From Trypanosoma brucei (taxonomy: Eukaryota), in assembly GCA_000002445.1 (NCBI GenBank), contig CP000068.1, positions 1,544,199 through 1,608,198 on the forward strand: DNA of 64,000 bases. The letters run 5' to 3'. Numbering within the stretch: position 1 is the stretch's first letter; every line of letters starts with the position of its first letter. The notes beneath the pieces were generated by a model that did not search any database, was not told the origin of the DNA, and worked only from the letters and a program-made list of their open reading frames with translations. Position numbers and translations under genes: made by a program. This document shows, one piece after another, positions 2,163-62,199 of this stretch.

Positions 2163-3260
2163 TCACCATGGACGTTTTGGGACGTCACTTCGACTTAATA
2201 AATCTGGCGGCCCATTGGAATGGCGGCTCGGGTGAAGCCTTTGCTGCGGTTTCATTGTAATACTGTCGCAAACAATACGGTTGCCATTCACTTCCATGGA
2301 TCGCATTAAAATTCTTTTCACATGCATTACATAATGACAATCTTGCATATCCACCGTTAATAACCCCTCAATTTTAAATTTATTCTTTATAACTTCCACG
2401 ACCATAATATCTTCATTGAGTGCTCTAAAATCAATATATGTTTCGACATTTCTGAATTTAATTTCTGATTTTACTAATTTTATCAAAAGCTCATAATCAA
2501 CAATTTTCTTAACTACATCCCTTGATAGTGTGGACGCATAACCTATTGTGTGCCATGTAATTTCGTCACTAAATTCTTTAGGATAACCAACCGCTCTTGC
2601 CACATTCAATTTCTCCATTGGCAATATTTCAAGGCACTGTAACAACAATGGCACCCTCATAAAAATATTATCATCTGCTTTCATTATATAAGGGTTTGTT
2701 GGCTTGAATAATTACACTGCAAATTTAAACTACAGATACGTGTTTCTACTCATCGTGAGTTCTGCTTCCCATCCCCAATTACACCCCTCTCCAACTTTTT
2801 TATCTGCTGTAGGATTTACATCGCAAACTGGTAAAATAATAATATCCTGCTTTAACTCCGCCTCTTCTTCAGCGATTACTCTGAGCTCGCAATTGTTATT
2901 TGTATGAGGTGAAAGGGTATATACTACAGACAACTTCCCAGTAAAATTATTTACCTTCCTTGCCGCTTCGGGATAACTCCAACACGTTTCCCTCTGAAGG
3001 TTGCGCCTTCTGAATCTCCCATCATTATCTATGGAAGGTATTCCAGCTACAACCAAATAATCGTCGGCTTTCCAAATCATCCTTACATCTTTCGAAACAA
3101 ATTTAATACACTCATCCTCAACAACTTCTAGTGAAATAGTGTCACACACGTCAAATAAGCTGTATAGTGACGTTCCTAAATTAACAGAAATAACAATTAA
3201 AAAAAGTAAACTATCATTAACCAAATAGTTTGCAAATACTTTATAAGATGCTATTCCCAT
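2163..3260 (-). pseudogene. ESAG-like / glycosyltransferase-like subtelomeric type-II membrane protein gene, split into two ORFs (2730..3260 and 2163..2684); family uncertain (ESAG3-like?).
   Basis: There is an N-terminal hydrophobic segment (SLLFLIVISVNLGTSLYS) and an IWKADDYLVV motif reminiscent of the GT DxD region. It is related to the ORFs at 25036-26001 and ~55700-56560, and an internal 540 bp is duplicated at 12591-13130. Confidence 0.35.
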
Positions 3261-3924
3261 ATTATTAGAAAACTATTAATATTTGTAAAATCAAAAACGA
3301 TATTTAGAAAATAAGTAAATGCTCTTCACCAAAGTGTTTACATAAGCAATTCCAAGGTATTGTCATGATGTAGCTGTTAAAAAGTCTATGTTAATATTCT
3401 GGAATTTTTATATAACCTCTCCTCTATATTTAGTTTTAGTAGTTATCTAGAGCCACATATAGTGCTTCTAAACAATATAAATCCTTCTGTTCTCTAGAAT
3501 TATTCACATTTTCCTCCAATGTATTTTTGTTTAATTACAGTAGTTACCTGCATCTATGTGTTCAGAAACGCTAATAATTTTACTGTTTATTTGTAGTAAC
3601 TACGACTAACATCCATTTTCGTGACTCTCGCATCACTATAACTTTTGAAACTTATGTAGTTGCCGTCTTGGGCAAAATAATGACACAGTATGGGCTGCAC
3701 ACTTCATCTTCTCTCTTACTTATTGTACCCTCTATCATCTCAATGTGCATAATGGTGTACACCGTTACATTTGTGCTCGAATTTACGCCTCTACAATACT
3801 CGTTTCCGTCTGCCTCCTTGACTCAGCTGCTCTTCACATTATTTACTTGGTCTTGTCGCGCCCTTGACATTGTTTCGACTGTTGCTATTGCGGTAAACCA
3901 TTTAGTATCTACAAACACTAACAT

Positions 3925-4000
3925 TACAATAATATCAGTATATACACACTCACAACACTCACCTATCATCATCATCATTATTATTATTATTATCATGGTA
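3925..4000 (-). repeat. 70-bp repeat (single unit with a short TAA/TGA tract), the upstream boundary of the VSG cassette at 397-1999
   Basis: + strand gtatatacacactcacaacactc...atcatcatcattattattattatt is the reverse complement of the canonical 70-bp repeat. Confidence 0.8.
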
Positions 4001-4224
4001 ATAACATCTTAAACTATCTTCACTATTTTTATTTGGATTGTAAACCTAAATTACTTCTAATATTCATAAAATAAAGAAAGTAAACTAAATTATAATATCA
4101 CTCATTTTTTATACCTTACTCCAAATTGTTTTATACCAATAGGCCACTATCATAAATATTTCATATGTTTGATATTTTTTAAATATTCACAATTTTCAAT
4201 TTTTTGCAAAGTTTTTATTAAAAA

Positions 4225-4240
4225 GTGTTAAAATATATCA
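4225..4240 (-). promoter_or_regulatory. VSG 3'UTR 16-mer, exact (TGATATATTTTAACAC on the sense strand)
   Basis: + strand gtgttaaaatatatca lies about 30 bp downstream of the GPI-tail coding end of the next VSG. Confidence 0.85.
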
Positions 4241-4272
4241 AATTTAAAAAATTATTTTGAAAAATAATTTTT

Positions 4273-5843
4273 TCATAAAATTAAGCAAAAATCCTTAGAA
4301 TATAAGAATGCTAAAATGCAACCACACTCACAAGGTAGCAGACGCCAGCGGAAATTTTTTATTTGCGAGGAAACTGTAATCTTTTCAAGTTGAGTCTTAC
4401 CATTTACAACTATCTTCACATTCTTTCTCTCCTTTCCCTGGACATTTATCCTTTTTCTTTCCATTTTTCTCCTGCTTCTTGGCTTGCTTTTTCTAGTCTT
4501 TCCTTCAGTTCCATTTTCGAGATGCACTTTTTTTCAGCTGGTTTGTTGTCGTGAAAATGGCAATGTTCAGTAGCATTACATGTCTTTGGGTCATTGTCTG
4601 TGATTTTATTGCAAGCTTCTTCTGAATTGCTTGACTGTTTGTTATCTTTGTTAGCTTCTACGTCATCTTTTAACTTGATTATTTCGTTGTTTTTGGCTAT
4701 TATTGAATTAAAAAGCAGTTTTAAAAGTTGCTCAACGCTCTGTATTTCAGAGAGCGAAGTCTCGCCGTTTTCTTTGTCAGAAAATTCTTTGTTTGGAATT
4801 TGTGTTTCTTTAATATCTTTCCATACCTTGAGGTCGGTTGGCTTGTCGCTATCTTTGTAGATCTCTTCTAGCTTCTCGCTTGTTGGGCCGGCGTCGCTGC
4901 TTGTGTCGTATTTTTTTGTTTTCTTCAGTAGCTGGTGGTGGGCTGCTGCCTTTGCTGCTGCCAATTCCTGCAGACATTTAATGGTGAACTTTGTATGCTC
5001 TTTTCCCGCCGCGATTTTATTCTCTGCGGCATATATGAGCAGGTTGCCAAACTCCGCATAAGTGGTTCCGGCTGTAATTTTTTTTCATGTTTTTGCAGGC
5101 TGCGCAATGTGTATCATCGCGGCGCCTGCTGTTGCCTGGCTGAGGTAGCCGGTGTCATATGTTACTGGCGCAGCTAGCGTTTGTGCGCCCACCATGCTGG
5201 TGCCGGTGTGTTGAGTTAGGGCGTAGTTCTGGACAGTTCCAGTCGTTGCTGCATCGCCTGAGGCAGTGGAGAGCTCATCGAACAGAGACGAAGGACTGGT
5301 TATAGCTTTGTTGGCCGTCGCTTTAGCGTCAAGCTGAGGGCCTACACCGCATTTTTTTCAAGGCTTGCCTTTTTTGCACTGCATTGCTGTTCCTGATTCT
5401 TCTAGGCACCCGTGAGTTTCGCATGTAGCGTAGGCCCCTGCAGCTATTTCTGCGAATTCAGCAATCCAGACCTGTAGGTAACTGCCGGCTGCCTGTGCAT
5501 TCAGTGCTACGTCTATTGCCGTTTGCAGCTGTGTGGCTGTTATTGCCAGAAGCTCACGAAGCGATTACAGCAGCGGCCGGAGATTTGTGGCTGCTCCGGG
5601 CGGCTGTCTAGCAAAATATACCATTATTTTCAGTTTGTCTTTTAGCCACGAATCTGCTGTTGCTATGCTCGTTTTTAGTTTGGCAGCCCTCGCCGGAGCT
5701 GCCGTCGCCAACGCTTCCGCTACGCCACACAGTGGCTGCCAGACCGTGTGTTTAACGGCGTCGCCTGCACTTGCGGATGCAGCATCTGCTAGATATATTA
5801 TGAGCAATAGCCTCGCTATGTCGTGCATTTGTGTAATGGGCAT
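4273..5843 (-). pseudogene. VSG: VSG pseudogene with multiple frameshifts
   Basis: ORF 5565..5843 carries the N-terminal signal peptide (MPITQMHDIARLLLIIYLADAASASA). ORF 4446..4964 is a Cys-containing CTD. ORF 4273..4527 ends in the hydrophobic ILAFLYSKDFCLIL. Poly-T indels occur at ~5090 and ~5350. Confidence 0.6.
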
Positions 5844-14519: not shown

Positions 14520-15955
14520 AAGAGAAAATTTCTTATTGACAAGAAAACTGGAATCTTTACAAGCATTATTTTTCCATTTGCATCCATCTTTTCAGTGTTC
14601 TTGTTTTGTCTTTTCAGAGCACTTTGAAGTTGCCCCTGCTGCTCCTACTCCTGTTTGTGTGGCCTGTTCATTTACCTTTGTCGTAATAGACTTGCAGTGT
14701 TTTTCATCTGTTTCGTCCACTTACCATTTTCATTTTTCATTGGTTGTGCAGTCAGCTGCTTTTTCTATTGCTTCGCATTGTTTTTTGTTGGTTTCTGTTG
14801 TGTTTTCATTCGGTGGTTTGGCGTCTGCTCTAGTTGTGGTTGGCTTGGCTACGCTAGAACTCCTGTAAATTTCCCACGCTGTGGAGTTTATTACTTTCAA
14901 TTGCGTTAGCAGGCTGTCGATCCGCCCATGTGTCACCAGTCGTTTGTCTGGTTAGCCCACGGCCCTTTCCAGATCCTGCATTCAGGTAATGCCGTTGTCG
15001 CTGTCACCAAGTTAGTGCTTGTAATTTACGGACATGCCATTGCTGCCATTGCCGTCGCATCCTTCGCTGTTTGTGGGTTTACTGAGTACAGCACAGGCTG
15101 GGAAGGCGCTTATGCTGCTAGTGTGCTTTCCCATTAAGTTTTTGACGCTGCCGAGAGCGGCTGCTATGCTGCCAGTTGTTAGCGCTGTTTCTCTTGTTTT
15201 CAGCCGGCATTTTGTTATCATCGTCTGGAGTTTCGTTTCCTTGTCTCCTTTGTGGTCGCTGTGGCCTTTTGCTGTTGGCGTGGTCCCCTTCTCACACGCA
15301 GCGGTAGCGCTTCCTTCCACGCCGACTCATAGACAGTATAGAGCTGTTGTCAAGGGCTTGTCTACTGTTGCAGCACAGGCTGTTCCGCCGCAAGTTTCGT
15401 CCACACTGGTTGCTACTGTGGATCCGTCAAATGCAGTTTTCTTCTCGCCGTGCAGCGCTTTCTTAATTTTATGCAGGGCTAAAGTTTTGGTGGTGCTATA
15501 CGCTTCTACTTACTGCTCCAGTGCGTCTTTTACTGCTTTCGCTGCAGCGTGTACTTTGATTAGGTTTTTGTTTGCACGTTCACGGTAATTACTTTTTGGT
15601 AGCCTTAGGATTCTGGGCTTGCCTGTTGAGTGTTCTTTTTCGTGTACCTCTTCAAGTTTCTTTCGCCAGGCTTCCTACTCACTTTCTTTGCTGTTGCTGC
15701 CTTCTGGTGTCAGTGCGCCATCTTTGGTTGTGTAGTATGTGTCCGTTTCTGTAGAAATATTTGGGTTCTCGATTTCGTTTAAGGTGGTCTGTACTTGAGC
15801 ATCTGCAGTTATGGCTTCCAGTTGCTTCGCTGCATCTTCTAGGGACAAAACGTTGCATATTACCGCAAATTCATTGTCGTTATCGTTGGCTGTTGCTGAT
15901 ACCTGGCTTATTACTGTATACAACAAAGCCCAAACTGTGAATAAAGTTTCCATTG
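14520..15955 (-). pseudogene. VSG: VSG pseudogene with several frameshifts
   Basis: The signal peptide METLFTVWALLYTVISQVSATA starts at ~15955. CTD pieces lie in ORFs 15012..15320 and 14730..14936. GPI-tail coding (aatttcttattgacaagaaaactgg) is at ~14525. Confidence 0.55.
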
Positions 15956-18653: not shown

Positions 18654-20099
18654 TTAAATATTTGCTCCTAAGGTCAAAAATGCAAGCAGAATAGGGTCCT
18701 TATGAATGACAAAAGAATTGCTCCATGTGGTGTTTGTTGTTTTCTCTTTTTTTCCTTCTTGATTTTCTGCTGCCTCTCTGTCTTCTGCTGCTTTCCCTTC
18801 CTCACTCAATGTGCACTTTTGGCCGGCTGGCTTATTTTCATCGAATGTGCATCCTGTTTTCTTTCCACATTCAGTTTTATCATCTCCTGCTTTGTTGCAC
18901 TCTTCATCCGCTTTGTTTTGTCTATTTGATTGGGCATCGCCGTCGTTTTTGCTATTTAGTAATGTCGTCATGGCCGGTACTGTGTCTTCTAGCAAATGCG
19001 TAACGGTTAGGTTTAGCATGTGGATTCGTTGGTTTAAAAGCTTAAGTGTATGCTGATGTTTTTCGGCTTCCTGTAGTGTGCTGCCTGCGCTTGTTAGCTC
19101 TTTTACCCATGGGATGCCTTGGAGGCCGTTTTGTAGTTGCGCTGTTTGGTAAGCAACACATGGTCCGTGGGTGCTGGTGGCGTCGCCGCTGCAGCCTCCG
19201 GCTCCGGTGCCTTCGAGGTAGCCCAGTGTATTGTGGAAGTCACGGTTTGTTCCTTTGGATTTTGCCATCCGCGCTGCGAATCGGCTAAGGGCGGCGTTGA
19301 TTGCCGCCGGGCTTAAGCCGAGTGAAGGCTTCTTGGTGTTGCATTTTTCTATGATGGCGTTGAAAAGTGTGGTCGGGTCGGCGTTTGGTGTCCAGTCGTT
19401 ATCTAGTTCGCCCCTGGTCAATTGTTTGCCGCATGCCGTGTTCCCCCTTGCCTCTCCGCTATGTTTGCCGCAAAGACATAATATGTCGAGGGCAATTGAA
19501 TTACCTGCGTGGCTCCCACCTTTTTTGTTGCTGTTGCCGCAGCCGCTAGCCCGGTTCGTGTCTGGCAGCCTTGCATTTTTGCTATTTCCAGTCTCGCCGT
19601 AGAGCGCTTTGGTTAGGGCAGCAGTGACGGCTTCAGCTTTAATTTGCTGCGCCTCATTTTTGGCCGTTTCGCTGATCTGAAATGCGACTTCTGCCGCCTG
19701 GATTAACTTTCGCTTTGCCGCTGTCGTTAGTTGCCGTCGTCGTACTTCTGCATAAGATTTTTTGTCTTGCCCGTGGCTAACCTCTAGCACATTTTTTAGA
19801 AACGCGTATTTGCTAGGTTTGCCGTCCGCCGCTTCTTTCATTGAGGCATTGGAATCACTGTAGTCCTTTTTTAGATCGATCTTGCTTATAAAGTCGGCGT
19901 TTGCAAGAGATATATTTATCACCCCAATTGTGGCTGCTATGTCTTGGGTATCATCGACGGCTGGCACTAGATTGACTTTGCTTTTGGCTAGCGCCGTTAG
20001 TTCGCAGAGAACCTCAAAATCTTCTTGATTCTCTCCCCCACTTATGACTCCATAGACCTGTAGTCTCGCTGTTATCAGAAAGACAACTATTGAAAACAT
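18654..20099 (-). CDS. VSG: VSG, apparently intact (481 aa): signal peptide, A-type N-terminal domain, CTD and hydrophobic tail
   Basis: MFSIVVFLITARLQVYGVISGGENQEDFEVLC ... ALYGETG ... CLCG ... NSFVIHKDPILLAFLTLGANI. Confidence 0.8.
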   Translation of the reverse strand: MFSIVVFLITARLQVYGVISGGENQEDFEVLCELTALAKSKVNLVPAVDDTQDIAATIGVINISLANADFISKIDLKKDYSDSNASMKEAADGKPSKYAFLKNVLEVSHGQDKKSYAEVRRRQLTTAAKRKLIQAAEVAFQISETAKNEAQQIKAEAVTAALTKALYGETGNSKNARLPDTNRASGCGNSNKKGGSHAGNSIALDILCLCGKHSGEARGNTACGKQLTRGELDNDWTPNADPTTLFNAIIEKCNTKKPSLGLSPAAINAALSRFAARMAKSKGTNRDFHNTLGYLEGTGAGGCSGDATSTHGPCVAYQTAQLQNGLQGIPWVKELTSAGSTLQEAEKHQHTLKLLNQRIHMLNLTVTHLLEDTVPAMTTLLNSKNDGDAQSNRQNKADEECNKAGDDKTECGKKTGCTFDENKPAGQKCTLSEEGKAAEDREAAENQEGKKEKTTNTTWSNSFVIHKDPILLAFLTLGANI

Positions 20100-20459
20100 G
20101 TCTCTATTTATTGCTGGCCTTGTTTCGTTAAATCTTTAATGTAACAAAAGCCTCTCAGACTGCAGGTGGGTTGATTATGCAAGGATGCTTGATGATTTGC
20201 ATTACTATTTTTAGGTATTATATTGCTACAATGTCTTTTTTGGCGTGGACCCTCCGGTGTAGTACATCCTATAGACAACAACCCGTCCTTACACAGTCAT
20301 TACAACAACTCCAGTGTCGCTTTATGTTGCTTATTATTTTTATTTTCGCTTTATATGGTCCACTGGCGTACATTAAAAATTTAAAGAGTGAAATTTGGCT
20401 TTGCTTTCAGTTTGGGGATGACTAACTTAGGATCTACAGGTCCTGTTCCGTCGGTATTT

Positions 20460-20471
20460 ATCCATTCTTGT
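20460..20471 (+). repeat. Target-site duplication, left copy (atccattcttgt)
   Basis: The identical 12-mer is repeated at 20974-20985 immediately after the A-rich tail. Confidence 0.75.
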
Positions 20472-20973
20472 CCCTGGCGATGCCGGCCACATCAATGTTG
20501 TGCCAGGGTCCAGTACCCCGTATCATCGAGGGAAGCCAAAAGCTAGCAGCGTTCCTTTCATGGGGAACACTGCTTTGCTCCGACTACGGCATCATACAGC
20601 ACAGGAATCAGCAGCGTCTTGCTCGGACACCATTTTTCATTTGTCTGTCCCTGGACACGTTGCTAGCATGCCATCAGCAGTATCATCCGCACTAAGATGC
20701 TGCTGTCCGGTGATGTGGAACTCCAAAAAAAGGATTGCCAATTGACATCTTTGGGAGAGTCCAGGGTGGGAGGCTTCTCGCCCCATCTGCTGTATTCCGT
20801 TCATATGCGGAAATACAACAAAAATTATAGAGGGTGTGTTAGGATGAATAAAAAAGGGAGACTCTGCCACAGTCGCCAGACCGATAGCATCTCAGGGCTC
20901 TACGGTGATGGCTGATAGCCGCGACAGTGGGGGGAAACTCCCACGAAGGCACGAAGAAAATTCCAAAAAAGAA
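20472..20973 (+). mobile_element. RIME: RIME (ribosomal mobile element), a non-autonomous ingi-family retroposon of ~502 bp
   Basis: It starts ccctggcgatgccggcc. The 3' ~230 bp (20730-20960) are near-identical to the 3' end of the ingi fragment at 61180-61410. It ends in an A-rich tail and is flanked by a 12-bp direct repeat. Confidence 0.8.
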
Positions 20974-20985
20974 ATCCATTCTTGT
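20974..20985 (+). repeat. Target-site duplication, right copy (atccattcttgt)
   Basis: See the left copy. Confidence 0.75.
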
Positions 20986-22584
20986 CCGTCCTTTGCGCTG
21001 ATTCCGCCAGGTAAATCGCTGTGTTCTCATTGGCCATGTTCTCGGCCATTTCGTAGATGTCTGTTATTAATACTGAAGCAACGTCCTCGTAACCTTGGTT
21101 TTTGATTGTCTGATTAGCTTGGGTTGCAGTTTTATTGTTGCGCAGCTGCTGGCGCCAGCATCGTTGCAGTGACTTGAATGGGTTGACTTTTAACTACGCG
21201 TAGATTTTGGGACAGACACTGAGGCTGTTCAGGTTCTGGCCGCTGCGTGCGTGTGAGTGGAATGATAAAAATGCTGCTTTGGCTGCTGGTCTAATGTTCT
21301 GCTCTATTTTGTGGTTGCTGACCCAAAAGATGTGGTAATTCTTATTTCTGGATTTTTCTTGAAGTATAAACGTTACACTACGAGTTACAAGATGTGTTTG
21401 TTATGTACAGGCCTTCTGTTGTTGAACTTTTCGCTCGACTATGTGCCTAGCTCTGGTGCTTCCTCCTGTGTAGTAAGTTAATCTAGAAGCTAAAGTTTTG
21501 AGATATGTGCAAAGCATTCGTTTGCGTGGGTGGTCGGCATATTTCTTTATTTCGCGAAAAAGTCTAATTTGTACGTAGAGAAGACAGCTGTTCTGTTCCT
21601 GCACTCCGGTAAGAAACATTCGTAGATCGATCGTATAACGTGTAAGGCATTTCGAGTAAAGAGAAAATAGAAGGGATACTACCGCGCGGTTGTATCAAAA
21701 AATATATATTAAATAAAGTACGGAGTAGAGTTGAGGAATTTTCACCTTAACATCTAATTTATAGCATGATATATATATTTATATATAAATTATCTAACAT
21801 TTGTAGTCAGTATAGACTTGTAGAAAAGTTCAACTGCTGTTGTACTGGTTCTTCTGCAATAACGATATAAAGCTGACGTTTCACCCTTGCGCACAGCCTT
21901 GAGAATTTAGTACCATCTTCCTATATTATTCTCTCTCTTTCCCTCCTCCTCATAAATTTCTGGCTTGAATGTACTTGTTACTTTTGTATTTGCCCCATAT
22001 AGTTCTTCAATCAAACTTCACCATGTATTTTTATATGAATCAGCCGTTACCTTAATAGGATAAAAGTTTTTTTCAATGATTTAGTATGGGAGCGGTGGAG
22101 TATCATTACAAACTTTCTGTGCTCCACAAATGTTATCTTCGGTCTCCAATGTGTGGGTTCTTATCATTCAATTATTCCTCTTCCTTTAGTCATTCTCCGC
22201 AGGCTCTGCTGTTTTTAATACCGCGGATAACGTAAAGACATCACTTGTCGTGCACACTGCACTCTGCGTCTCAATAATTCTCCACTACATCGTCCCCTAG
22301 TATATAATGGAACAAAGAACCATATGTGTGTTTTAAACTGTGCATATTCCATATTTCTTCATTCCATATCACTTTATGCCTTTCTTCCTTACCTTTAATA
22401 TTCTTCGCTCTGTTCTACTTACTGTTTCATTTACTTACATCCAATATACCATTTATATTTTACAGCGCTTCTATTTTAACTATCCATTTCATCTCAACCA
22501 CAACTGTTATTAAAACATTAGTGTACTCACACCCTCAGCACATTCAATCATTATCATCACCATTTCTCTCTCTTATTAAAATAT

Positions 22585-22640
22585 TTGTATATGCACACTC
22601 ACAACACTCTCCTATCATCATCATTATTGTTATTTTTGCT
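22585..22640 (-). repeat. 70-bp repeat (single)
   Basis: gtatatgcacactcacaacactctcctatcatcatcattattgtta. Confidence 0.75.
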
Positions 22641-22810
22641 ATCGTGACTGCTCTTATTCATGAAATGAATAAAAGACAAATTAATTCAGAATAGTACTCA
22701 GTTTTTGCGCACTTTTACCTTAATACTTTATACCTACAGGCCACTTTAATACACATATTTCACATTGTCGAGTTTTTCAAAATCTGCGCATTTTGCAGAT
22801 GTTTAAGAAA

Positions 22811-44004: not shown

Positions 44005-45829
44005 GGGTGCACCACGCGTCCTGTGTTAGTGATTGAAACTTACGGTTGCTTATTTATTTATAAAAGAAGAGGAAAGCTGTTTGCGAAAAAGGATTGAGTC
44101 AAGTCGCGTCGGCGTCGGTTTTTTTTCCTGACACTCTTGCGGTGCTGATTAACTTTTCATGTGACCTTCCGGATTTCACTCCTCTGAAAGGTTAATAGAC
44201 CGCTTGAACCGCCGGTTAAAGTTTTTTACTCACCTTTGTTGGTTATTTTTCTCAAAATTACATTCAAAACAACCTTTGATTGCATTTTCTTCTCTCTATA
44301 TATCTCTCTCCTTAAAGCCTTAAAGTACTTCAATCTCTCACACTTCCAGGTCATGGCGTTGTGTGGATAAATTCTTCTGCCACTACGCTCTAAGCACTAC
44401 TTGAGTAACTACTGCAGCTGCTTTGGTTAACGACTGATGACTAAAGTTCAGTTGTTTCCAATTAGCTGCATTACTGTCCTCCTTTTGCAGTTCATGTGTT
44501 ATGGCTGGTACTAAACCTGAAGGTAGTTGTGCGCTGTGGATTTTTTGTTTTTTATTATTTTTGGATATATATGGTCTTGTTGTTGTTTGTGATAATGCTG
44601 CTTGACTTCTTTTTATATGACGCGTTCTTTTGTAGTGCAGAACCAATTGTTGGCAGGTCACAGCTAGCGTTGTAATTTAAAACCCCATGTTGCATCCGTA
44701 AATAAATTTCCAACACATATTCAACCCTCATCTATTAAATTCCCATCTATGCTCCATTATCTCATCCTGTTATTGCTCCGAATCATCGAAAACATTTTAT
44801 GTCTAAAATTTCAACTTTTATCGTTATTAGCCGTATCTATTTTCTACATTTTCATCTATGCTTGTTTTTTCTAGAATAACAAAGTACAGGCATGCTTTTT
44901 TATGGAAACAATTCCATGCCTGATTGTGGTGCGTATCGTGCTGCTCTGATGCCAAAAGAGGCTTAATGCCTGGAAAATTAAGGCTACAAAGTGCTTTAAA
45001 GCTGATTTTTGTTTTTTGTCCTGCTACATGCTGGTCAACCAACCACTTTTTATTAATTAATCGCTTATTCAAACGTTTTGATCTCTATCCAGTATACCGA
45101 TTTTGAATAAAGTAACATACCTATCGATTTTCTATACTTCATAGGCTTCCTTCATCTTTTCATATATTTGCTATTTAAAAAATCCTTATTTTTATTTTAA
45201 TTCTGCTGTCATGGATTATCCATTAGTATTCCTAGTTTTAAAATTCTTCTCCAAACAATAAAATGTTGTTTCCTACAACTGTTAGATATTGTTAATATAT
45301 ATGAAAAGATGTCCCCTATATTACGTCACCCTTACCCAATTCCTTCCCGTTTCCTCTTCTGAACATGAGGATAAGAAACCAAACTAAAAAGCATTTTCTG
45401 CAACCTTTCCTCCTGTATCTAACAATTATTTAGTGAAATATAGAACACAATCACCTCTCCCTCACCCTGCATCACTTTCTTCTGCTGCGTTTCGGATCAC
45501 ACCAAGTCACTTAAATCGGTATCTTTCGTCCCTTTTTAATTTTTCTACAACTGCTCCTGCGGATAACATGGCACTTTCATTTGGCTTTTACACTAGGCTC
45601 TGTGCGTCTGCCATTGTCCCCTAAATCATCTCCCTGAGTATGATTATATCGGTAGTCTTTTATCTTTTACAAGCACTTATATTCAAACATTCCTTTCTTT
45701 TTCTGCCTTTTTGGACCTCTTCAATAATAATCCTGATACTTCTCCACTTCTTTTAACTCACTCATTTGATCTTATCGCACACCTGCAGTTGTTTTTAATT
45801 CCTCTATTTTAATTTTTCCATTCTGTCTT

Positions 45830-46200
45830 ACTACTCTAATATGAGTATATACACACTCACCACACACTCCTATAATCATTATTATTATTACTATTATAAT
45901 TACTGCTCTTACTATAATATTCGTATATACACACTCACAATACTCTCCTACTATTATCATTATTATTATTATATTCGTATATACACACTCACAACACTCT
46001 CCTACTATTATCATTATTATTATTATATTCGTATATACACACTCACAACACTCTCCTACTATTATCATTATTATTATTATATTCGTATATACACACTCAC
46101 AACACTCTCCTACTATTATCATTATTATTATTATATTCGTATATACACACTCACAACACTCTCCTACTATTATTATTATTACTATTATTACTATTTTCAT
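45830..46200 (-). repeat. 70-bp repeat array of ~6 regular units (~58-75 bp period)
   Basis: attcgtatatacacactcacaacactctcctactattatcattattattatt, six times. Confidence 0.9.
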
Positions 46201-46365
46201 AGCTTTCATATATAAAATAAACAAAGTAAAACAAAATTGTAATATCACTTACTTGTCATACCTTCTGATCATACTGTTTTACAATATTCGGTCAAATTTA
46301 AGAAAATAAGTTTGTAAAACATTTCGAATTTCCAAAATTTGAACAGGTCGCAAAGGTTTCACAAA

Positions 46366-57559: not shown

Positions 57560-57690
57560 CACTCTTATTATAATTTTAGTATATGCACACTCACAACACT
57601 CTTCTATCATTATTATTATTAACACTTTTACGCTAATATTAGCAAATACACTCACAACACAATTTTTTCATTATTATTTTTTTGTTACAC
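57560..57690 (-). repeat. 70-bp repeats (~2 units, one degenerate)
   Basis: agtatatgcacactcacaacactcttctatcattattattatt ... aaatacactcacaacacaa. Confidence 0.8.
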
Positions 57691-57868: not shown

Positions 57869-57989
57869 AATGTTTCTCCGATTAAATAGAAATTTCATAA
57901 ATTTTCACAAAGTTGAGAAAAATCATTAAAATTATTAAAATTATAAAATTCTAGCAGGCTCACAAACACAGCAGCAATTAGACACATTT

Positions 57990-58500
57990 GTTTTTTTACA
58001 AGAAAACCGAGTCTTTCATTTATTGTCTTCCCATTTTCAACCATATTTGCACTGACCTTGGTTTGTCCCTGCTGAAAAAGAAGCTTTGATTGCTACTTCT
58101 GCCCCGTTTGACCTTCGCTGCCACGCATTTGTCATTTTTGAATTTGAACCAATCATCTGTTTTGCATTTATCTTTTTCTGTTATTGTTTTGCATTTGTCG
58201 CCAAAGTCTTTTGTTCCAGTGTGCATGGCTACTGCTTCCTGTGCATGTATTTTTTCAGAAACGTTCTTTCCACGGCAGTAACAGAGCACAGTTATGCCTT
58301 TTATAGTTCCGCAAATATCGAGCGGTGTTTCATCAATTCTCACCTTGTTTATTGTGAGTTTAATCTTGGTTTCCTCTATTGCGTTTGTTATTGTCGTTTT
58401 CAATTCGCTCGGACTGCTCCCGAAATACTTGTTAACAACTGCCTTTTTGATGTTTGCATCAGCTGGAGGTTAGCTCCCCGATTGTATCAGTTGCTTTAGG
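57990..58500 (-). pseudogene. VSG: VSG C-terminal fragment (CTD plus frameshifted GPI signal), truncated at its 5' side where the ingi fragment begins
   Basis: ORF 58020..58403 has Cys-rich CTD motifs (CYCRGKNVSEKIHAQEAVAMHTGTKDFGDKCKTITEKDKCKTDDW). An alternate frame gives LGFLVKKQMCLIAAVFV. Confidence 0.55.
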
Positions 58501-58890
58501 GCACTTATTAGCTAGTTGTTTGTCTCCAGGTTGCTCATGGCTTCCCTGTGAGGGCCACGTACTGTGGAATTTCTGTTTTTCTTAAATTGCAAAGTAAGTG
58601 GTCGAGAGGAAACGCAAGATGGACTTCAGACTACTGCAGATAACAGCCATCTCAGCTTCTACATGGGGGCCAAGACGACAATACTGAGAGCTTTTTATCT
58701 AGCACTCGTACAGGCACACACCATGTATGGCATTGAGGTATGGTACTGGGACGCTTAGGAACGAAGTCGCGACCTCCTTGCATCAGCACAACACAAAGCC
58801 AGTCGCATCATAGCTGGTATACTGCATGGGACACGCAAAGAGGTCTCTCTGCTGGAAGCAAACCTCCTGCCACTCAAGACGGCCACTCTT

Positions 58891-59829
58891 GTGCGCAGCA
58901 TGAAATTCATGCTGATGTGTGAGTCACGAGGCGGATGTTTGCGGCGCAGTGCTGAGGAAGTATACCACAGCAAACACCCAGTCAGAGCCCTACATTCCCG
59001 CATCATGCGGTCCTACCCCCACCTCCGCATTGAGCCACGCGAGCACCCACTAGAGACATCGACGCTCCGCCACAGCTGCCGACCTCTATTTCACACGCAG
59101 ATAAAGCCTGTGTGCGCTGATGACCCTGACGATGTCAAAAGGGAGGCTCATGAAAAGTGGATTGCACGGCATTTTGCACGGAGGGGGAAGGAGCCACCGC
59201 GACGAGAGCACTACGAATTGTGGACTGATGGATCCGTGTCCCTCGGTGAGAAGTCCGGAGCAGCTGCCCTGCTCTATAGAAACAACACGCTGATTCGTGC
59301 ACCAGAGACCGGAGCAGGGGAACTCTCATGCAGTTACAGAGCGGAATGCGTAGCATTAAAAATAGGACTGCAACGGCTGCTGAAATGGCTCCTGGCATAC
59401 AGAAGCACACCGAGCAGGTTGTCTATCTTCTCTGACTCGCTGTCAATGTTAACAGCACTGCAGACAGGCCCCCTAGCCGTAACGGACCCAATTCTAAGAC
59501 GACTATGGAGGCTTCTGCTTCAAGTTCAGAGAAGGAAGGTGCGTATCCGACTGCAATTTGTGTTTGGCCATTGTGGCGTGAAACGGAATGAGGTTTGCGA
59601 TGACATGGCCAAAAAGGCCACTGATTTACCACAGTTGCGAGACACATGGATCCCCGACATCATTGCTTATGCGAAGCGAGTGCTTAGGTCGGAAGAAGTC
59701 TATGAAAACACTCATAGGTTTGGTATCGCGGGCAACCACTTTCCAACAAAACATAAAGAAGAACTGACGAGGGAAGAAGAAACGGCACTGGCACGCTTTC
59801 GGGTTGGGTCTTCAAGGCACTATGGATAG
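58891..59829 (+). CDS. ingi ORF segment with the RNase H domain
   Basis: The ORF terminates in an in-frame TAG at 59827-59829, directly followed in the same frame by the zinc-finger ORF. Confidence 0.65.
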   Translation: MRSMKFMLMCESRGGCLRRSAEEVYHSKHPVRALHSRIMRSYPHLRIEPREHPLETSTLRHSCRPLFHTQIKPVCADDPDDVKREAHEKWIARHFARRGKEPPRREHYELWTDGSVSLGEKSGAAALLYRNNTLIRAPETGAGELSCSYRAECVALKIGLQRLLKWLLAYRSTPSRLSIFSDSLSMLTALQTGPLAVTDPILRRLWRLLLQVQRRKVRIRLQFVFGHCGVKRNEVCDDMAKKATDLPQLRDTWIPDIIAYAKRVLRSEEVYENTHRFGIAGNHFPTKHKEELTREEETALARFRVGSSRHYG

Positions 59830-61140
59830 ATGTTGCGAAAGATCAACCCGAGTGTGCCTCCACAGTGCCGATGGTGTAACCCGCAACATGCAGCGATAGG
59901 GCCAACAATACAAGTACAAGCAGCCCCAACTGTTGCGACACGCACTCTTCAGAGGACCTCCGAACCGACCAAATGTACGGAATGTGATGACACATACCAG
60001 TGCCGCTCGAGTGCTGTAACGCACATGGTAAACAAACATGGCTTTGTGCGAGCTGATGCCCTCCGGAGGATCAAATACGGCGATGCAACACCTGCAGTGG
60101 ATATCCCCCCGGAGCCCCCTCCAGTGGCGGCGATCGTTCCTCTACCATCGAGCACACGAGTCCATATGAGACCGCAGGTGCTTTACTGTATCCTCTGTGC
60201 TTTCAAATTCGCAGTGCCAGGCCGACTATTACACCACCTTAGAACAATACATGGCATAAGCAGCGGTAGTTGCCGCGTGAAAAGGGGGCGAGAAAACGAG
60301 GACTCATTGCAAGGAGATGGTAGCGTCCCAGCAGCGCCAGCCCCTCAGGATACACGGAAGCTGCCGTTTCAATGTGACCTGTGCGTGGTGAGCTTCGGTA
60401 CACGTTCTTCCCTGTCACTACACAAGAAATTCAAACATAAGAGCATAGTGACGGAGGACGGTACCGTGGTGGTGGTGCAATTCCCTCGTAAGCGTGCCCG
60501 TGAGGGAAACGTTGACGTCCCGGGGAAGGGAGAGGTGCAGTGTGGTGTGTGCCAAAAAGTGCTCAGTTGCAGGGACTCCCTCATCCGACACTGTAAGGCT
60601 TTCCACAAAGGTGAGGGAGTCGAGCTTAAATGCAGCAAAAGCACAAAATTGTGTGCCACTGATTCCCCGCATACAAACACATCCATGTTGGTGTGCCCGA
60701 CATGCGGAAGGCAGTGTGCTAGCAAAACTGGCCTCACCATACATCAAAAGAAGATGCGCGGTATGAAGGTAGAGCACGCTGCTACCAGCCAACGCGGCCA
60801 CTGCGAAGAAACGTCGCTGCACTTGATGAGCTGTCCCGGTTTGAAGGATTTACGTGTCAGGTTTGCGGTAGAAGGTGAGTGTGTGTGTGTGCAGGATGTA
60901 TGTTTTTCTAAGAGGCTGGCGCAGTTTCTCATTGCGGCTGAACGGAGCCGGCTGCAGGTGAAGTCTTCACCTAATGTAACAGTCATACAACCCACTCTCC
61001 CTTCTACAACTTCCCCCCTTATTGCCGAGTGTGGAGCTAGCAGGAAAAGCACCGGACGCAGGAATAGTCCAGACACCCTCAGAGACAGAGGGGGTATGCA
61101 ATCAACAAGCAACAGAAACAGAAAGAGGGAGAGAGAATAA
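59830..61140 (+). CDS. ingi ORF C-terminal segment with C2H2 zinc fingers (L1Tc/ingi-type nucleic-acid chaperone region)
   Basis: CTECDDTYQCRSSAVTHMVNKHG; LYCILCAFKFAVPGRLLHHLRTIHG; FQCDLCVVSFGTRSSLSLHKKFKHK; CGVCQKVLSCRDSLIRHCKAFHKG; CPTCGRQCASKTGLTIHQKKMRG. Confidence 0.65.
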   Translation: MLRKINPSVPPQCRWCNPQHAAIGPTIQVQAAPTVATRTLQRTSEPTKCTECDDTYQCRSSAVTHMVNKHGFVRADALRRIKYGDATPAVDIPPEPPPVAAIVPLPSSTRVHMRPQVLYCILCAFKFAVPGRLLHHLRTIHGISSGSCRVKRGRENEDSLQGDGSVPAAPAPQDTRKLPFQCDLCVVSFGTRSSLSLHKKFKHKSIVTEDGTVVVVQFPRKRAREGNVDVPGKGEVQCGVCQKVLSCRDSLIRHCKAFHKGEGVELKCSKSTKLCATDSPHTNTSMLVCPTCGRQCASKTGLTIHQKKMRGMKVEHAATSQRGHCEETSLHLMSCPGLKDLRVRFAVEGECVCVQDVCFSKRLAQFLIAAERSRLQVKSSPNVTVIQPTLPSTTSPLIAECGASRKSTGRRNSPDTLRDRGGMQSTSNRNRKRERE

Positions 61141-62199
61141 TAAACGAATAACAAAAATCAAAACAAAAGGATTGCTAATTGACATCTTTGGGAGAGTCTG
61201 GGGTGTGGGGACTTCTCGCCCCATCTGCTGTATTCCGTTCAAATGCGGAGCTACAACAAAAAATTATAGAGGGTGTGTTAGGCTTAATAAAAAAACGGAG
61301 ACTCTGCCACAGTCGCCAGACCGATAGCATCTCAGGGCTCTACGGTGATGGCTGATGGCCGCGCCAGTGGGGGGAAACGCTCACCAAGGCACGAAGAAAA
61401 TTCCAAAAAAAAAATAGAGTTGAATTAACTACTGTTGCGATTCTATCCATGGAAGTGGCTTCTCATGGTTGCTTTGGTAGAGACAGTTTGAAAAATTGAA
61501 TCACTACATTTTTGTTTCTTTTTCTTTACTCTTTGATCTCGAAACTGTCATTTGATTCCCCTTATTGGGCGCATGGCTTTGCTCGGCTATCATCGCTATT
61601 GTTACGCAAATAACGTTTGGCCTCAGCCGCCAGTTTGAATGCCTTTTGATCTTTTTTTAACTTACACTTATTTACGGTTTGGATTATAATCGCAGAAATA
61701 TAATCAAAACTACCTACCCTTCCCCCACATTTCTTATCGGTGTCTATCGCTACTTCCATAGAATAGACTTTAATACTCTATAAGTCGATTCTATTTGAAG
61801 TTATAGGTTATTAACGGTTGCTGTATTCGCATTAAAACTTCAGCTAAGTCATCTACAGTGTTCATCCTGTGCGAAATATGTAGAGCAATCTCTTCCTCCT
61901 TTTGTATTATATCACAATATACTTTGTAGTCTAGACTATTCTATGGTTGTATTCTGTTATTTTCGTTATTAAACATATTGAGTGGCTTCTGTGGATTAAA
62001 TGCCGACCCGTAGGCTTGTCCACTGGGCACTGTATTTCTTCATTATCGCCCTCTTCAACATTTTCTTGTGTATAATTGTACACATCGTCATGTGTTTGAA
62101 GTTGCACATATTACATCTCCAACTATCTCCAGCATTTACTCCAACCCCACACTTTAAATTGCTTTAACTACTTCTATTTTGATTACCTATTTAGGTCTC

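What the first reader, a model, noticed from the sequence alone, without database searches (positions are those of the whole stretch)
20460..20985. Complete RIME retroposon with a 12-bp target-site duplication in a VSG co-transposed region
A ~502-bp element begins ccctggcgatgccggcc and ends in an A-rich tail. Its 3' 230 bp match the 3' end of the ingi fragment at 61180-61410. It is flanked by the perfect direct repeat atccattcttgt at 20460-20471 and 20974-20985. It lies between the VSG at 18654-20099 and that VSG's 70-bp repeat (22585), in + orientation, antisense to the array. The clean duplication suggests a relatively recent insertion.
Basis: partly seen in the sequence, partly recalled or inferred. 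Interest (0 to 1): 0.5.

Follow-up and report, generated by a model that had tools for sequence, protein, structure and literature searches.

The report
Ordinary RIME retroposon upstream of a VSG
This is a complete copy of RIME, the well-known 0.5-kb non-coding retroposon of Trypanosoma brucei, with its 12-bp target-site duplication, sitting upstream of a silent surface-antigen (VSG) gene; it is a correct call but an ordinary, already described kind of element.

Summary
A 502-bp element (20472-20973, + strand) starts CCCTGGCGATGCCGGCC and ends AAAAAAGAA. It is flanked by ATCCATTCTTGT on both sides, a match expected by chance about 1e-7 of the time.

It is a genuine TbRIME:
- Positions 1-249 match the 5' end, and 254-502 the 3' end, of a full-length 5,253-bp ingi encoding reverse transcriptase, RNase H and zinc fingers.
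- Two RIME copies at unrelated loci share its internal deletion junction (92.9% and 94.8% identical).
- All eight published RIME-LAMP primer sites map in order, with 2 mismatches in 160 nt.
- The 34 nt upstream match the published Tbingi/TbRIME insertion signature at 8 of 10 positions.

The context is also as described. The window is a T. brucei VSG array on the − strand. The element lies 372 bp upstream of an intact VSG_B gene and below its 70-bp repeat, antisense to the array.

The "relatively recent" inference is not demonstrated. The copy differs from a small consensus at 3.8% of positions, close to the published median of 4%. At that divergence a perfect duplication survives 30-50% of the time.

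I could not test for an empty site in other strains. Verdict: already known, low interest.

The parts
20438..20471 (+). Insertion-site signature (putative recognition site of the ingi-encoded endonuclease): 22 nt upstream plus the 12-nt duplicated target, AGGTCCTGTTCCGTCGGTATTT^ATCCATTCTTGT
   Evidence: Matches the published Tbingi/TbRIME 'ingi4' signature AxxxxxxxTxxxGTxGGxTxxx^xTxTxxTxxxxx (PMC3820030) at 8 of 10 specified positions. Only 73 of 63,966 + strand positions in the window score 8 or more. The GTxGG core sits at the same offset upstream of three of the four comparator elements; the fourth, the L003 ingi, has GAGGG there.
20460..20471 (+). Left copy of the 12-bp target-site duplication, ATCCATTCTTGT
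   Evidence: 12 of 12 identical to the right copy.
20472..20973 (+). Complete TbRIME retroposon, 502 bp, non-coding (longest internal ORF 81 aa), GC 51% against 40.7% for the window
   Evidence: 92.9% identical to the RIME at L002:861-1360 (T. b. equiperdum) and 94.8% to the RIME at L003:4300-4801 over full length. ORFs. GC. AT-skew reverses inside the element.
20472..20550 (+). Pr77 / '79-bp signature', the hallmark of ingi-clade retroposons. It is reported in relatives to act as an HDV-like self-cleaving ribozyme and, in L1Tc, as an internal promoter.
   Evidence: Aligns without gaps to the first 79 nt of two ingi and two RIME copies. Helix P1 (1-7 with 31-37) is 7 of 7 paired here and 100% paired in six copies, with one compensatory G-C to A-U change. 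This copy has one mismatch each in the proposed P3 and P4. Function is taken from PMC4035085 and PMC1874656 and was not tested here.
20472..20720 (+). 5' half, homologous to the first ~249 nt of ingi
   Evidence: 92.4% to L001:8118-8364, which lies upstream of RVT_1 ORFs. 90.8% to nt 1-248 of the full-length ingi at L003:6605-11857(−).
20721..20731 (+). RIME-specific deletion junction, CTCC plus A7, joining the two ingi ends
   Evidence: The same breakpoint (…GTGGAA / CTCC-A-run / GGATTGCC…) is present in RIMEs L002 and L003, whereas ingi continues GAGAATCCCGG. The published RIME-LAMP amplicon spans it: F3 at 20703-20721, F2 at 20737-20756.
20725..20973 (+). 3' half, homologous to the last ~250 nt of ingi, ending in a short A-rich tail (20965-20973, AAAAAAGAA)
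   Evidence: 91.7% to window 61162-61413. 89.6% to nt 5004-5253 of the L003 ingi.
20974..20985 (+). Right copy of the 12-bp target-site duplication, ATCCATTCTTGT
18654..20099 (-). Context: intact VSG gene (481 aa, b-type). Its ATG lies 372 bp from the RIME 5' end.
   Evidence: Pfam VSG_B 1e-74. 98% and 93% identical to T. brucei EATRO1125 VSGs 1125.431 and 1125.4560.
22520..22650 (-). Context: the 70-bp repeat belonging to this VSG cassette (one good unit plus a degenerate one)
   Evidence: Sequence read. Core GGAGAGTGTTGTGAGTGTG at 22594-22612, one of 28 hits to that core motif (up to 3 mismatches allowed), all on the − strand.
58600..61413 (+). Related element in the window: a 5'-truncated ingi (equivalent to nt 2453-5253 of a full-length ingi), in the same orientation as the RIME
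   Evidence: 94.7% over 2,815 bp to the L003 ingi. RNase H and C2H2 zinc-finger ORFs.

Best explanation
The feature is a full-length copy of TbRIME, the 0.5-kb non-autonomous partner of the T. brucei LINE-like retroposon ingi. It was inserted by target-primed reverse transcription into the stretch between a silent array VSG and its 70-bp repeat.

Inferred sequence of events:
1. An ingi-encoded endonuclease recognised the T-rich …GTCGGTATTT motif.
2. It nicked the bottom (−) strand between window positions 20459 and 20460.
3. The freed 3'-OH primed reverse transcription of a RIME RNA from its A-rich 3' end.
4. The top strand was cut 12 nt downstream, and repair duplicated ATCCATTCTTGT.

The RIME encodes nothing and depends on ingi proteins supplied in trans. 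Its first 77-79 nt are the clade's Pr77 hallmark. In relatives this folds into an HDV-like ribozyme that trims the RNA to nucleotide +1.

In a silent array the copy is most probably a neutral passenger. It would travel with this VSG in any gene conversion that starts in the 70-bp repeat.

What is shown: the anatomy, the homology, the duplication and the target motif. What is inferred: the order of nicks, mobilisation in trans, ribozyme activity and neutrality.
For: - **Boundaries and duplication:**. Chance probability about 1.3e-7.
- **5' half equals the ingi 5' end; 3' half equals the ingi 3' end.** The comparator ingi carries RVT_1 (8.7e-45), RNase H and zinc fingers.
- **Deletion junction** is shared with two RIMEs at unrelated loci.
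- **Other copies carry the same kind of duplication.** The comparator RIMEs and ingi have 12-bp duplications that are 12/12, 11/12 and 11/12 identical. The published rule is that ingi-clade duplications are 12 bp (PMC3820030).
- **Target motif:** 8 of 10 positions, reached by only 0.11% of window positions. Comparators score 10, 6, 6 and 8.
- **Diagnostic primers:** eight published RIME-LAMP primer sites designed on GenBank K01801 map collinearly with 2 mismatches in 160 nt.
- **Composition:** GC 51% against 40.7% for the window, matching the published 53.8% against 41%.
- **No coding capacity:** longest ORF 81 aa.
- **Ribozyme helix P1** is fully paired, with one compensatory change among six copies.
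Against: Nothing contradicts the identification. The limits are these:
- No empty site from another strain or a paralogue could be obtained. The insertion event is therefore inferred from the duplication, not seen directly.
- The A-tail is short (9 nt, with one G).
- This copy has mismatches in the proposed ribozyme helices P3 and P4. It also differs from consensus at 3.8% of positions, so it may no longer be a competent source element.
- Promoter activity of the ingi/RIME 5' end was reported absent in T. brucei (Garcia-Salcedo 2003, as cited in PMC1874656).
- The fold I tested was drawn by me on the generic HDV topology. It is not taken from a published ingi structure.
Confidence: 0.95

Rival explanations
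1. A full-length ingi inserted here and later lost its central 4.7 kb by deletion in place, leaving something that only looks like a RIME.
For: RIME is by definition an internally deleted ingi (PMC2323293; PMC3447711), so the two ends alone cannot separate the two histories.
Against: The breakpoint (GTGGAA / CTCC-A-run / GGATTGCC) is the same in two RIMEs at unrelated loci, L002 and L003. It lies inside the published RIME-LAMP amplicon designed on the 1984 RIME sequence. An independent deletion hitting the same nucleotides is very unlikely.
Confidence: 0.02
2. The 12-mer pair is a chance repeat or the edge of a segmental duplication, not a target-site duplication.
For: Short two-copy repeats are common; one search lists many of 10-14 nt in the same 2 kb.
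Against: The pair abuts the homology-defined ends of the element exactly. The probability is about 1.3e-7. The 12-mer occurs nowhere else in the window. A reconstructed empty site has no other match in the window. The length equals the family's fixed 12 bp.
Confidence: 0.01
3. The insertion is not recent. It is a copy of average age, possibly inherited when the whole VSG cassette was duplicated, rather than a fresh event at this locus.
For: - 19 differences in 501 positions (3.8%) from a five-sequence majority consensus, 13 of them private, against a published median of 4%, with 13.8% of RIMEs more than 99% identical to consensus.
- The RIME in L003 is at 1.4% by the same measure.
- The tail is short and interrupted.
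- P(perfect duplication) is 0.29-0.48 at 3-5% divergence.
Against: - The consensus rests on only five sequences from two or three genomes, so some 'private' changes may have come from an unsampled source element.
- The duplication is perfect.
- VSGs 98% and 93% identical exist in strain EATRO1125, but their flanks are not available.
Confidence: 0.55
4. It belongs to a different short ingi-clade family (TbSIDER1, TbSIDER2 or a degenerate DIRE fragment) rather than RIME.
For: All of these share the 76-79-bp 5' signature (PMC3820030; PMC2323293).
Against: It is 93-95% identical over its full length to RIMEs and about 90-92% to both ingi ends. TbSIDER families are about 570 bp or carry two signatures, and are 8-18% diverged from their own family consensus sequences. 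The TbSIDER2 sequences in the PMC4035085 supplement are visibly different beyond the signature.
Confidence: 0.01

Closest known systems
TbRIME (ribosomal inserted mobile element; Hasan, Turner & Cordingley 1984; GenBank K01801)
   Same: Length about 0.5 kb. 5' and 3' halves equal the two ends of ingi. CCCTGG… start with the 79-bp signature. A-rich tail. 12-bp duplication. Upstream GTxGG motif. GC about 51-54%. All RIME-LAMP primer sites present.
   Different: Nothing structural. This copy has a short 9-nt tail with one G, and about 3.8% divergence from a small consensus with an excess of G-to-A changes.
Tbingi (5.25-kb autonomous LINE-like retroposon, ingi4 subclade)
   Same: Shares the first ~249 and last ~250 nt, the 12-bp duplication and the upstream insertion signature. 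It presumably supplies the endonuclease and reverse transcriptase in trans.
   Different: [quoted passage not shown]
NARTc / L1Tc pair of Trypanosoma cruzi
   Same: The same logic of a short non-coding element derived from its autonomous partner, with the Pr77 hallmark at the 5' end, a 12-bp duplication and relative site specificity.
   Different: NARTc is a 3'-deleted derivative of 0.25 kb. Its upstream signature is different (the ingi1 or ingi6 one; the source paper gives both assignments). Little nucleotide similarity beyond Pr77.
HDV-like ribozymes of non-LTR retrotransposons (L1TcRz, R2Rz)
   Same: The first 77 nt can be drawn as P1/P2/P3/P4 of the nested double pseudoknot. P1 is perfectly conserved and covaries once.
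   Different: Activity was not tested for this copy. It has a mismatch in each of P3 and P4, no Rfam model matches it, and the drawing is my own inference.

Membership tests
TbRIME | About 500 bp, no protein-coding capacity | tested here: met
   502 bp. Longest ORF overlapping it is 81 aa.
TbRIME | 5' ~250 bp collinear with the 5' end of ingi | tested here: met
   Positions 1-249: 92.4% to L001:8118-8364, upstream of RVT_1 ORFs. 90.8% to nt 1-248 of the 5,253-bp ingi in L003.
TbRIME | 3' ~250 bp collinear with the 3' end of ingi | tested here: met
   Positions 254-502: 91.7% to window 61162-61413 and 89.6% to nt 5004-5253 of the L003 ingi.
TbRIME | Family-specific internal deletion junction | tested here: met
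   The same breakpoint as in RIMEs L002:861-1360 and L003:4300-4801. The LAMP F3/F2 primer sites straddle it.
TbRIME | 76-79-bp ingi-clade signature (Pr77) at the extreme 5' end | tested here: met
   Ungapped alignment of nt 1-79 with four other T. brucei-group elements.
TbRIME | A-rich 3' terminus | tested here: met
   AAAAAAGAA at 20965-20973. Shorter than in the comparators.
TbRIME | 12-bp target-site duplication | tested here: met
   ATCCATTCTTGT on both sides, 12 of 12. Rule from PMC3820030. The boundary is formally ambiguous between 12 and 14 nt because of a shared CC.
TbRIME | Conserved 'ingi4' motif upstream of the insertion (AxxxxxxxTxxxGTxGGxTxxx^xTxTxxTxxxxx) | tested here: met
   8 of 10 positions, reached by 0.11% of + strand positions.
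TbRIME | Sequence identity to the reference RIME (K01801) | tested here: met
   Tested only indirectly. 158 of 160 nt are identical across eight published primer sites, in the correct order and orientation.
TbRIME | Mobilised in trans by ingi-encoded proteins | not testable with these tools
   Inferred from the shared ends, shared duplication length and shared target motif.
HDV-like ribozyme (Pr77 / L1TcRz type) | Nested double-pseudoknot fold with self-cleavage 5' of nucleotide +1 | tested here: inconclusive
   - On six copies, 90.3% of cells pair, against 28-51% for slid controls.
- P1 is 100% paired with one compensatory change, but 73 of 500 shuffles do as well.
- The MFE fold is not better than shuffles (z = −0.18).
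- No Rfam hit.
- Cleavage is not testable here.
Tbingi (autonomous element) | About 5.25 kb with an ORF encoding endonuclease, reverse transcriptase and RNase H | tested here: not met
   The element is 502 bp and lacks the central region, so it is RIME and not ingi.

The most novel reading that the evidence does not exclude
The RIME could be a strain-polymorphic insertion inside a functional VSG cassette, one that gets copied into the expression site whenever this VSG is activated from its 70-bp repeat. There, lying antisense in the Pol I-transcribed unit, it could do one of three things. It could feed the abundant ingi/RIME siRNA pathway. It could offer a cryptic polypyrimidine/AG splice acceptor, since its poly-T face lies on the VSG sense strand. 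Or it could serve as a 250-bp homology patch with the same-orientation ingi fragment 40 kb away, and so influence the expression or recombination of this particular VSG.
Probability: 0.05. Interest if true: 0.35.

Novelty: already known. Interest (0 to 1): 0.1.

Why it matters
It matters little beyond correct annotation. [quoted passage not shown] Their structure, 12-bp duplication and target motif were described between 1984 and 2004.

A well-bounded copy inside a VSG cassette has some practical uses:
- It can serve as a presence/absence marker for strain typing or for dating cassette duplications.
- It is a reminder that retroposons lengthen the region co-converted with a VSG. Here the interval from the 70-bp repeat to the ATG is 2.5 kb, against 0.6-1.9 kb for neighbouring cassettes.
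- It flags a pair of same-orientation ingi-derived repeats that could mediate deletion within the array.

Tried and rejected
- **Rfam** scan of 20300-21200 at E ≤ 10: only chance hits, and no HDV-like family.
- **Plain MFE folding** of nt 1-79: no better than shuffles and unable to represent the pseudoknot.
- **Exact-protein look-ups** for three window VSGs and two close homologues, to find the source contig or an orthologous empty site: nothing on record.
- **Exact search** for the reconstructed empty-site junction in metagenome contigs: 0 hits. The bacterial/archaeal genome, phage, plasmid and E. coli collections were not searched, because they cannot hold trypanosome DNA.
- **Bringaud et al. 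2004** (the primary paper on ingi/RIME site specificity) is not held. I took the signature from the later paper that restates it.
- **Text search for 'ccctggcg'** together with 'ingi' gave only irrelevant papers.
- **A precedent I recall from memory** (Smiley et al. 1990, a retroposon in the 5' flank of a VSG gene) could not be found in the library. It is not used as evidence.
- **Rejected explanations:** in-place deletion of an ingi, a chance repeat, and a SIDER or DIRE identity. The reasons are given under the rival explanations.

Full report
**What is in the sequence**

Reading 20300-21200 shows an element that begins CCCTGGCGATGCCGGCC at 20472 and ends AAAAAAGAA at 20973, 502 bp in all. 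ATCCATTCTTGT sits immediately before it (20460-20471) and immediately after it (20974-20985).

The repeat finder reports the pair as a 14-nt exact repeat, because the element and the downstream flank both start with CC. The duplication is therefore formally 12-14 nt. Twelve is the reading that leaves the element with the CCCTGG start seen in every comparator.

Three checks rule out chance and a larger duplication:
- The 12-mer occurs only at these two places in 64 kb.
- With the window's base composition, the chance that the 12 nt abutting two fixed ends are identical is 1.3e-7.
- A reconstructed empty site (1 kb left, one copy of the 12-mer, 1 kb right) matches nothing else in the window.

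**What the window is**

Sixteen ORFs were scanned against Pfam, and nine of the ten on the − strand hit trypanosome VSG domains (VSG_B or Trypan_glycop). The ORF at 18654-20099 (−) hits VSG_B at 1e-74. Its closest database relatives are T. brucei EATRO1125 VSGs, at 98% and 93% identity.

The 70-bp-repeat core GGAGAGTGTTGTGAGTGTG occurs 28 times, always on the − strand, in short clusters upstream of successive VSGs. One cluster is at 22594-22612.

So the window is a T. brucei-group subtelomeric VSG array read on its antisense strand. The element lies 372 bp upstream of an apparently intact VSG and about 1.6 kb below that VSG's 70-bp repeat, in the opposite orientation.

**Is it a RIME?**

Within the window, only the 3' half has a second copy: positions 254-502 match 61162-61413 at 91.7%. 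To test the 5' half I needed outside sequences.

A protein search with the RNase H ORF of the window's ingi fragment found ingi proteins in T. b. equiperdum. Their contig gave loci L001 and L002. A search with a 72-aa ORF spanning the middle of the element found one protein, annotated in Schistosoma mansoni. Its 13-kb scaffold is locus L003.

These loci contain:
- two more complete RIMEs, L002:861-1360 (92.9% identical) and L003:4300-4801 (94.8%);
- an ingi 5' end followed by RVT_1 ORFs, at L001:8118 onward;
- a complete 5,253-bp ingi at L003:6605-11857 (−), with RVT_1 (8.7e-45), RNase H and C2H2 zinc fingers.

The window element's positions 1-249 align with the first 248 nt of that ingi (90.8%). 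Positions 254-502 align with its last 250 nt (89.6%).

The alignment shows where they part. After …GGTGATGTGGAA, ingi continues GAGAATCCCGG. All three RIMEs continue CTCC, then an A-run, then GGATTGCC, which is the start of the ingi 3' block. The deletion junction is therefore a family character and did not arise at this locus.

As an independent check against the original RIME sequence (GenBank K01801), I mapped the eight primer-binding sites of the published RIME-LAMP assay. All map inside the element in the right order and orientation, with 2 mismatches in 160 nt. The F3 site lies on the 5' side of the junction and F2 on the 3' side.

Two further properties fit. GC is 51% against 40.7% for the window, matching the published 53.8% against 41%. 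No ORF exceeds 81 aa.

**Insertion anatomy and mechanism**

The literature states that ingi-clade elements have a fixed 12-bp target-site duplication. It also states that Tbingi and TbRIME are preceded by the motif AxxxxxxxTxxxGTxGGxTxxx^xTxTxxTxxxxx, where the arrow marks the first-strand nick (PMC3820030).

The 34 nt before this element, AGGTCCTGTTCCGTCGGTATTT^ATCCATTCTTGT, match 8 of the 10 specified positions. Only 0.11% of + strand positions in the window reach that score.

The comparators behave the same way:

| Element | Duplication | Identity | Motif score (of 10) |
|---|---|---|---|
| Window RIME | ATCCATTCTTGT | 12/12 | 8 |
| L002 RIME | TTATTTTCCCTA | 12/12 | 10 |
| L003 RIME | TAGTTCCACACG / TAGTTCCGCACG | 11/12 | 6 |
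| L003 ingi | ATATTTCTTTGT / ATAGTTCTTTGT | 11/12 | 6 |
| L001 ingi | not assessable (3' truncated) | – | 8 |

From the established target-primed reverse-transcription model, I infer the following. The bottom strand was nicked between 20459 and 20460. The cDNA was primed from that 3'-OH on the A-rich end of a RIME RNA. The top strand was cut 12 nt downstream. The CC shared by the target and the element's 5' end may have helped the 5' junction form, but that is speculation.

**The 5' hallmark**

The first 77-79 nt are the Pr77 / 79-bp signature. [quoted passage not shown] Active ribozymes are also reported for T. brucei and T. congolense LINEs of this clade, although promoter activity was not found for ingi/RIME (PMC4035085, PMC1874656).

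I drew a generic HDV topology on the sequence: P1 1-7/31-37, P2 11-15/72-76, P3 16-19/26-29, P4 45-49/56-60. I then counted pairs on six copies:
- P1 pairs in all six copies, with one G-C to A-U double change.
- Overall 90.3% of cells pair, against 28-51% when the partners are slid by 1-3 columns.
- With six sequences the shuffle control is weak (73 of 500).
- The window copy has C17·U28 in P3 and C47·A58 in P4.

This is compatible with the published function but does not demonstrate it. Rfam has no matching model, and ordinary MFE folding is uninformative.

**Age**

Against a majority consensus of five sequences per half, the window copy differs at 19 of 501 positions (3.8%). At 13 of these, all the others agree. 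By the same measure the L002 RIME is at 3.4% and the L003 RIME at 1.4%.

Published values are a median of 4% divergence from consensus, with 13.8% of RIMEs more than 99% identical to consensus. This copy is therefore of ordinary age by that yardstick.

At 3-5% divergence the 24 bases of the duplication would remain untouched 29-48% of the time. The clean duplication says little about age.

The caveat is that my consensus is tiny, so some differences may come from the source element. I could not obtain an orthologous locus from another strain.

**Comparison with what is known, and verdict**

Every defining feature of TbRIME that could be tested was met. The feature that separates it from ingi, the missing coding region, is also clear. 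The SIDER, DIRE, in-place deletion and chance-repeat alternatives are excluded by the full-length alignments, the shared junction and the statistics above.

RIME has been known since 1984. Its relation to ingi, its 12-bp duplication and its target preference are all published, and retroelements are a recognised component of T. brucei subtelomeres. Only the 'recent' gloss is unsupported.

The finding is ordinary. It is useful for annotation and as a possible strain marker, and it is not novel.

Noticed in passing
window 58600-61413 (+), with 57895-58403 (−) and 70-bp repeats at 57586 and 62228: The 'ingi fragment' is a 5'-truncated ingi equal to nt 2453-5253 of a full-length element (94.7%). 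It has no obvious target-site duplication. Its truncated end abuts a VSG C-terminal fragment (cysteine-rich CTD plus a hydrophobic GPI-signal-like tail) on the − strand. It occupies the place where the N-terminal part of that VSG should be, between two 70-bp repeat sites. It has the same orientation as the RIME 40 kb away, so the two share a ~250-bp direct repeat (91.7%) that could mediate a deletion.
   Followed up: partly
L003 (NCBI GCF_000237925.1, NW_017386363.1, 13,228 bp, labelled Schistosoma mansoni; protein Smp_186500): This unplaced 'S. mansoni' scaffold carries a complete T. brucei-type RIME (94.8% to the window copy) and a complete 5,253-bp ingi (94.7% to the window's ingi fragment over 2.8 kb). 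It is most probably trypanosome DNA contaminating the schistosome assembly, and the annotated 67-aa 'hypothetical protein' is an ORF inside the RIME.
   Followed up: partly
window 20472-20973: Of the 19 differences between this RIME and the small consensus, 9 are G-to-A on the element's sense strand and only 1 is C-to-T (binomial p = 0.02). The cause is unknown. It could be strand-asymmetric mutation in the array, reverse-transcription error, or an artefact of a five-sequence consensus.
   Followed up: no
window 45909-46188 (−): A tandem array of 5.2 units with a 54-bp period (97% matches) carries the 70-bp-repeat core. This is a shortened variant of the usual ~72-78-bp spacing seen at the other clusters in the window. 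It also creates a spurious 158-aa ORF at 45772-46248.
   Followed up: partly
L001:19839-19920 (T. b. equiperdum): A more diverged ingi-clade 5' end (83% to the RIME) carries G6-to-A together with C32-to-T. This is a compensatory change that keeps helix P1 of the proposed HDV-like fold paired.
   Followed up: partly
L001:12826-12904 (+) and 15654-15732 (−): Two ingi 3' segments in inverted orientation both stop at the same internal position (equivalent to RIME position 332), about 2.75 kb apart. This suggests a palindromic rearrangement or an assembly artefact in the T. b. equiperdum chromosome.
   Followed up: no
whole window: There is strong strand asymmetry: T 36% against A 23% on the + strand. 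Every VSG-family Pfam hit among the scanned ORFs, and all 28 hits to the 70-bp-repeat core motif, are on the − strand. The AT-skew flips inside the RIME, which makes the insert visible by composition alone.
   Followed up: no
window 20099-22612 compared with other cassettes: The interval from the 70-bp repeat to the VSG ATG is 2,495 bp here. That is the longest in the window; the others measured are about 590-1,950 bp. Without the 514-bp insertion it would be 1,981 bp, within the normal range.
   Followed up: no
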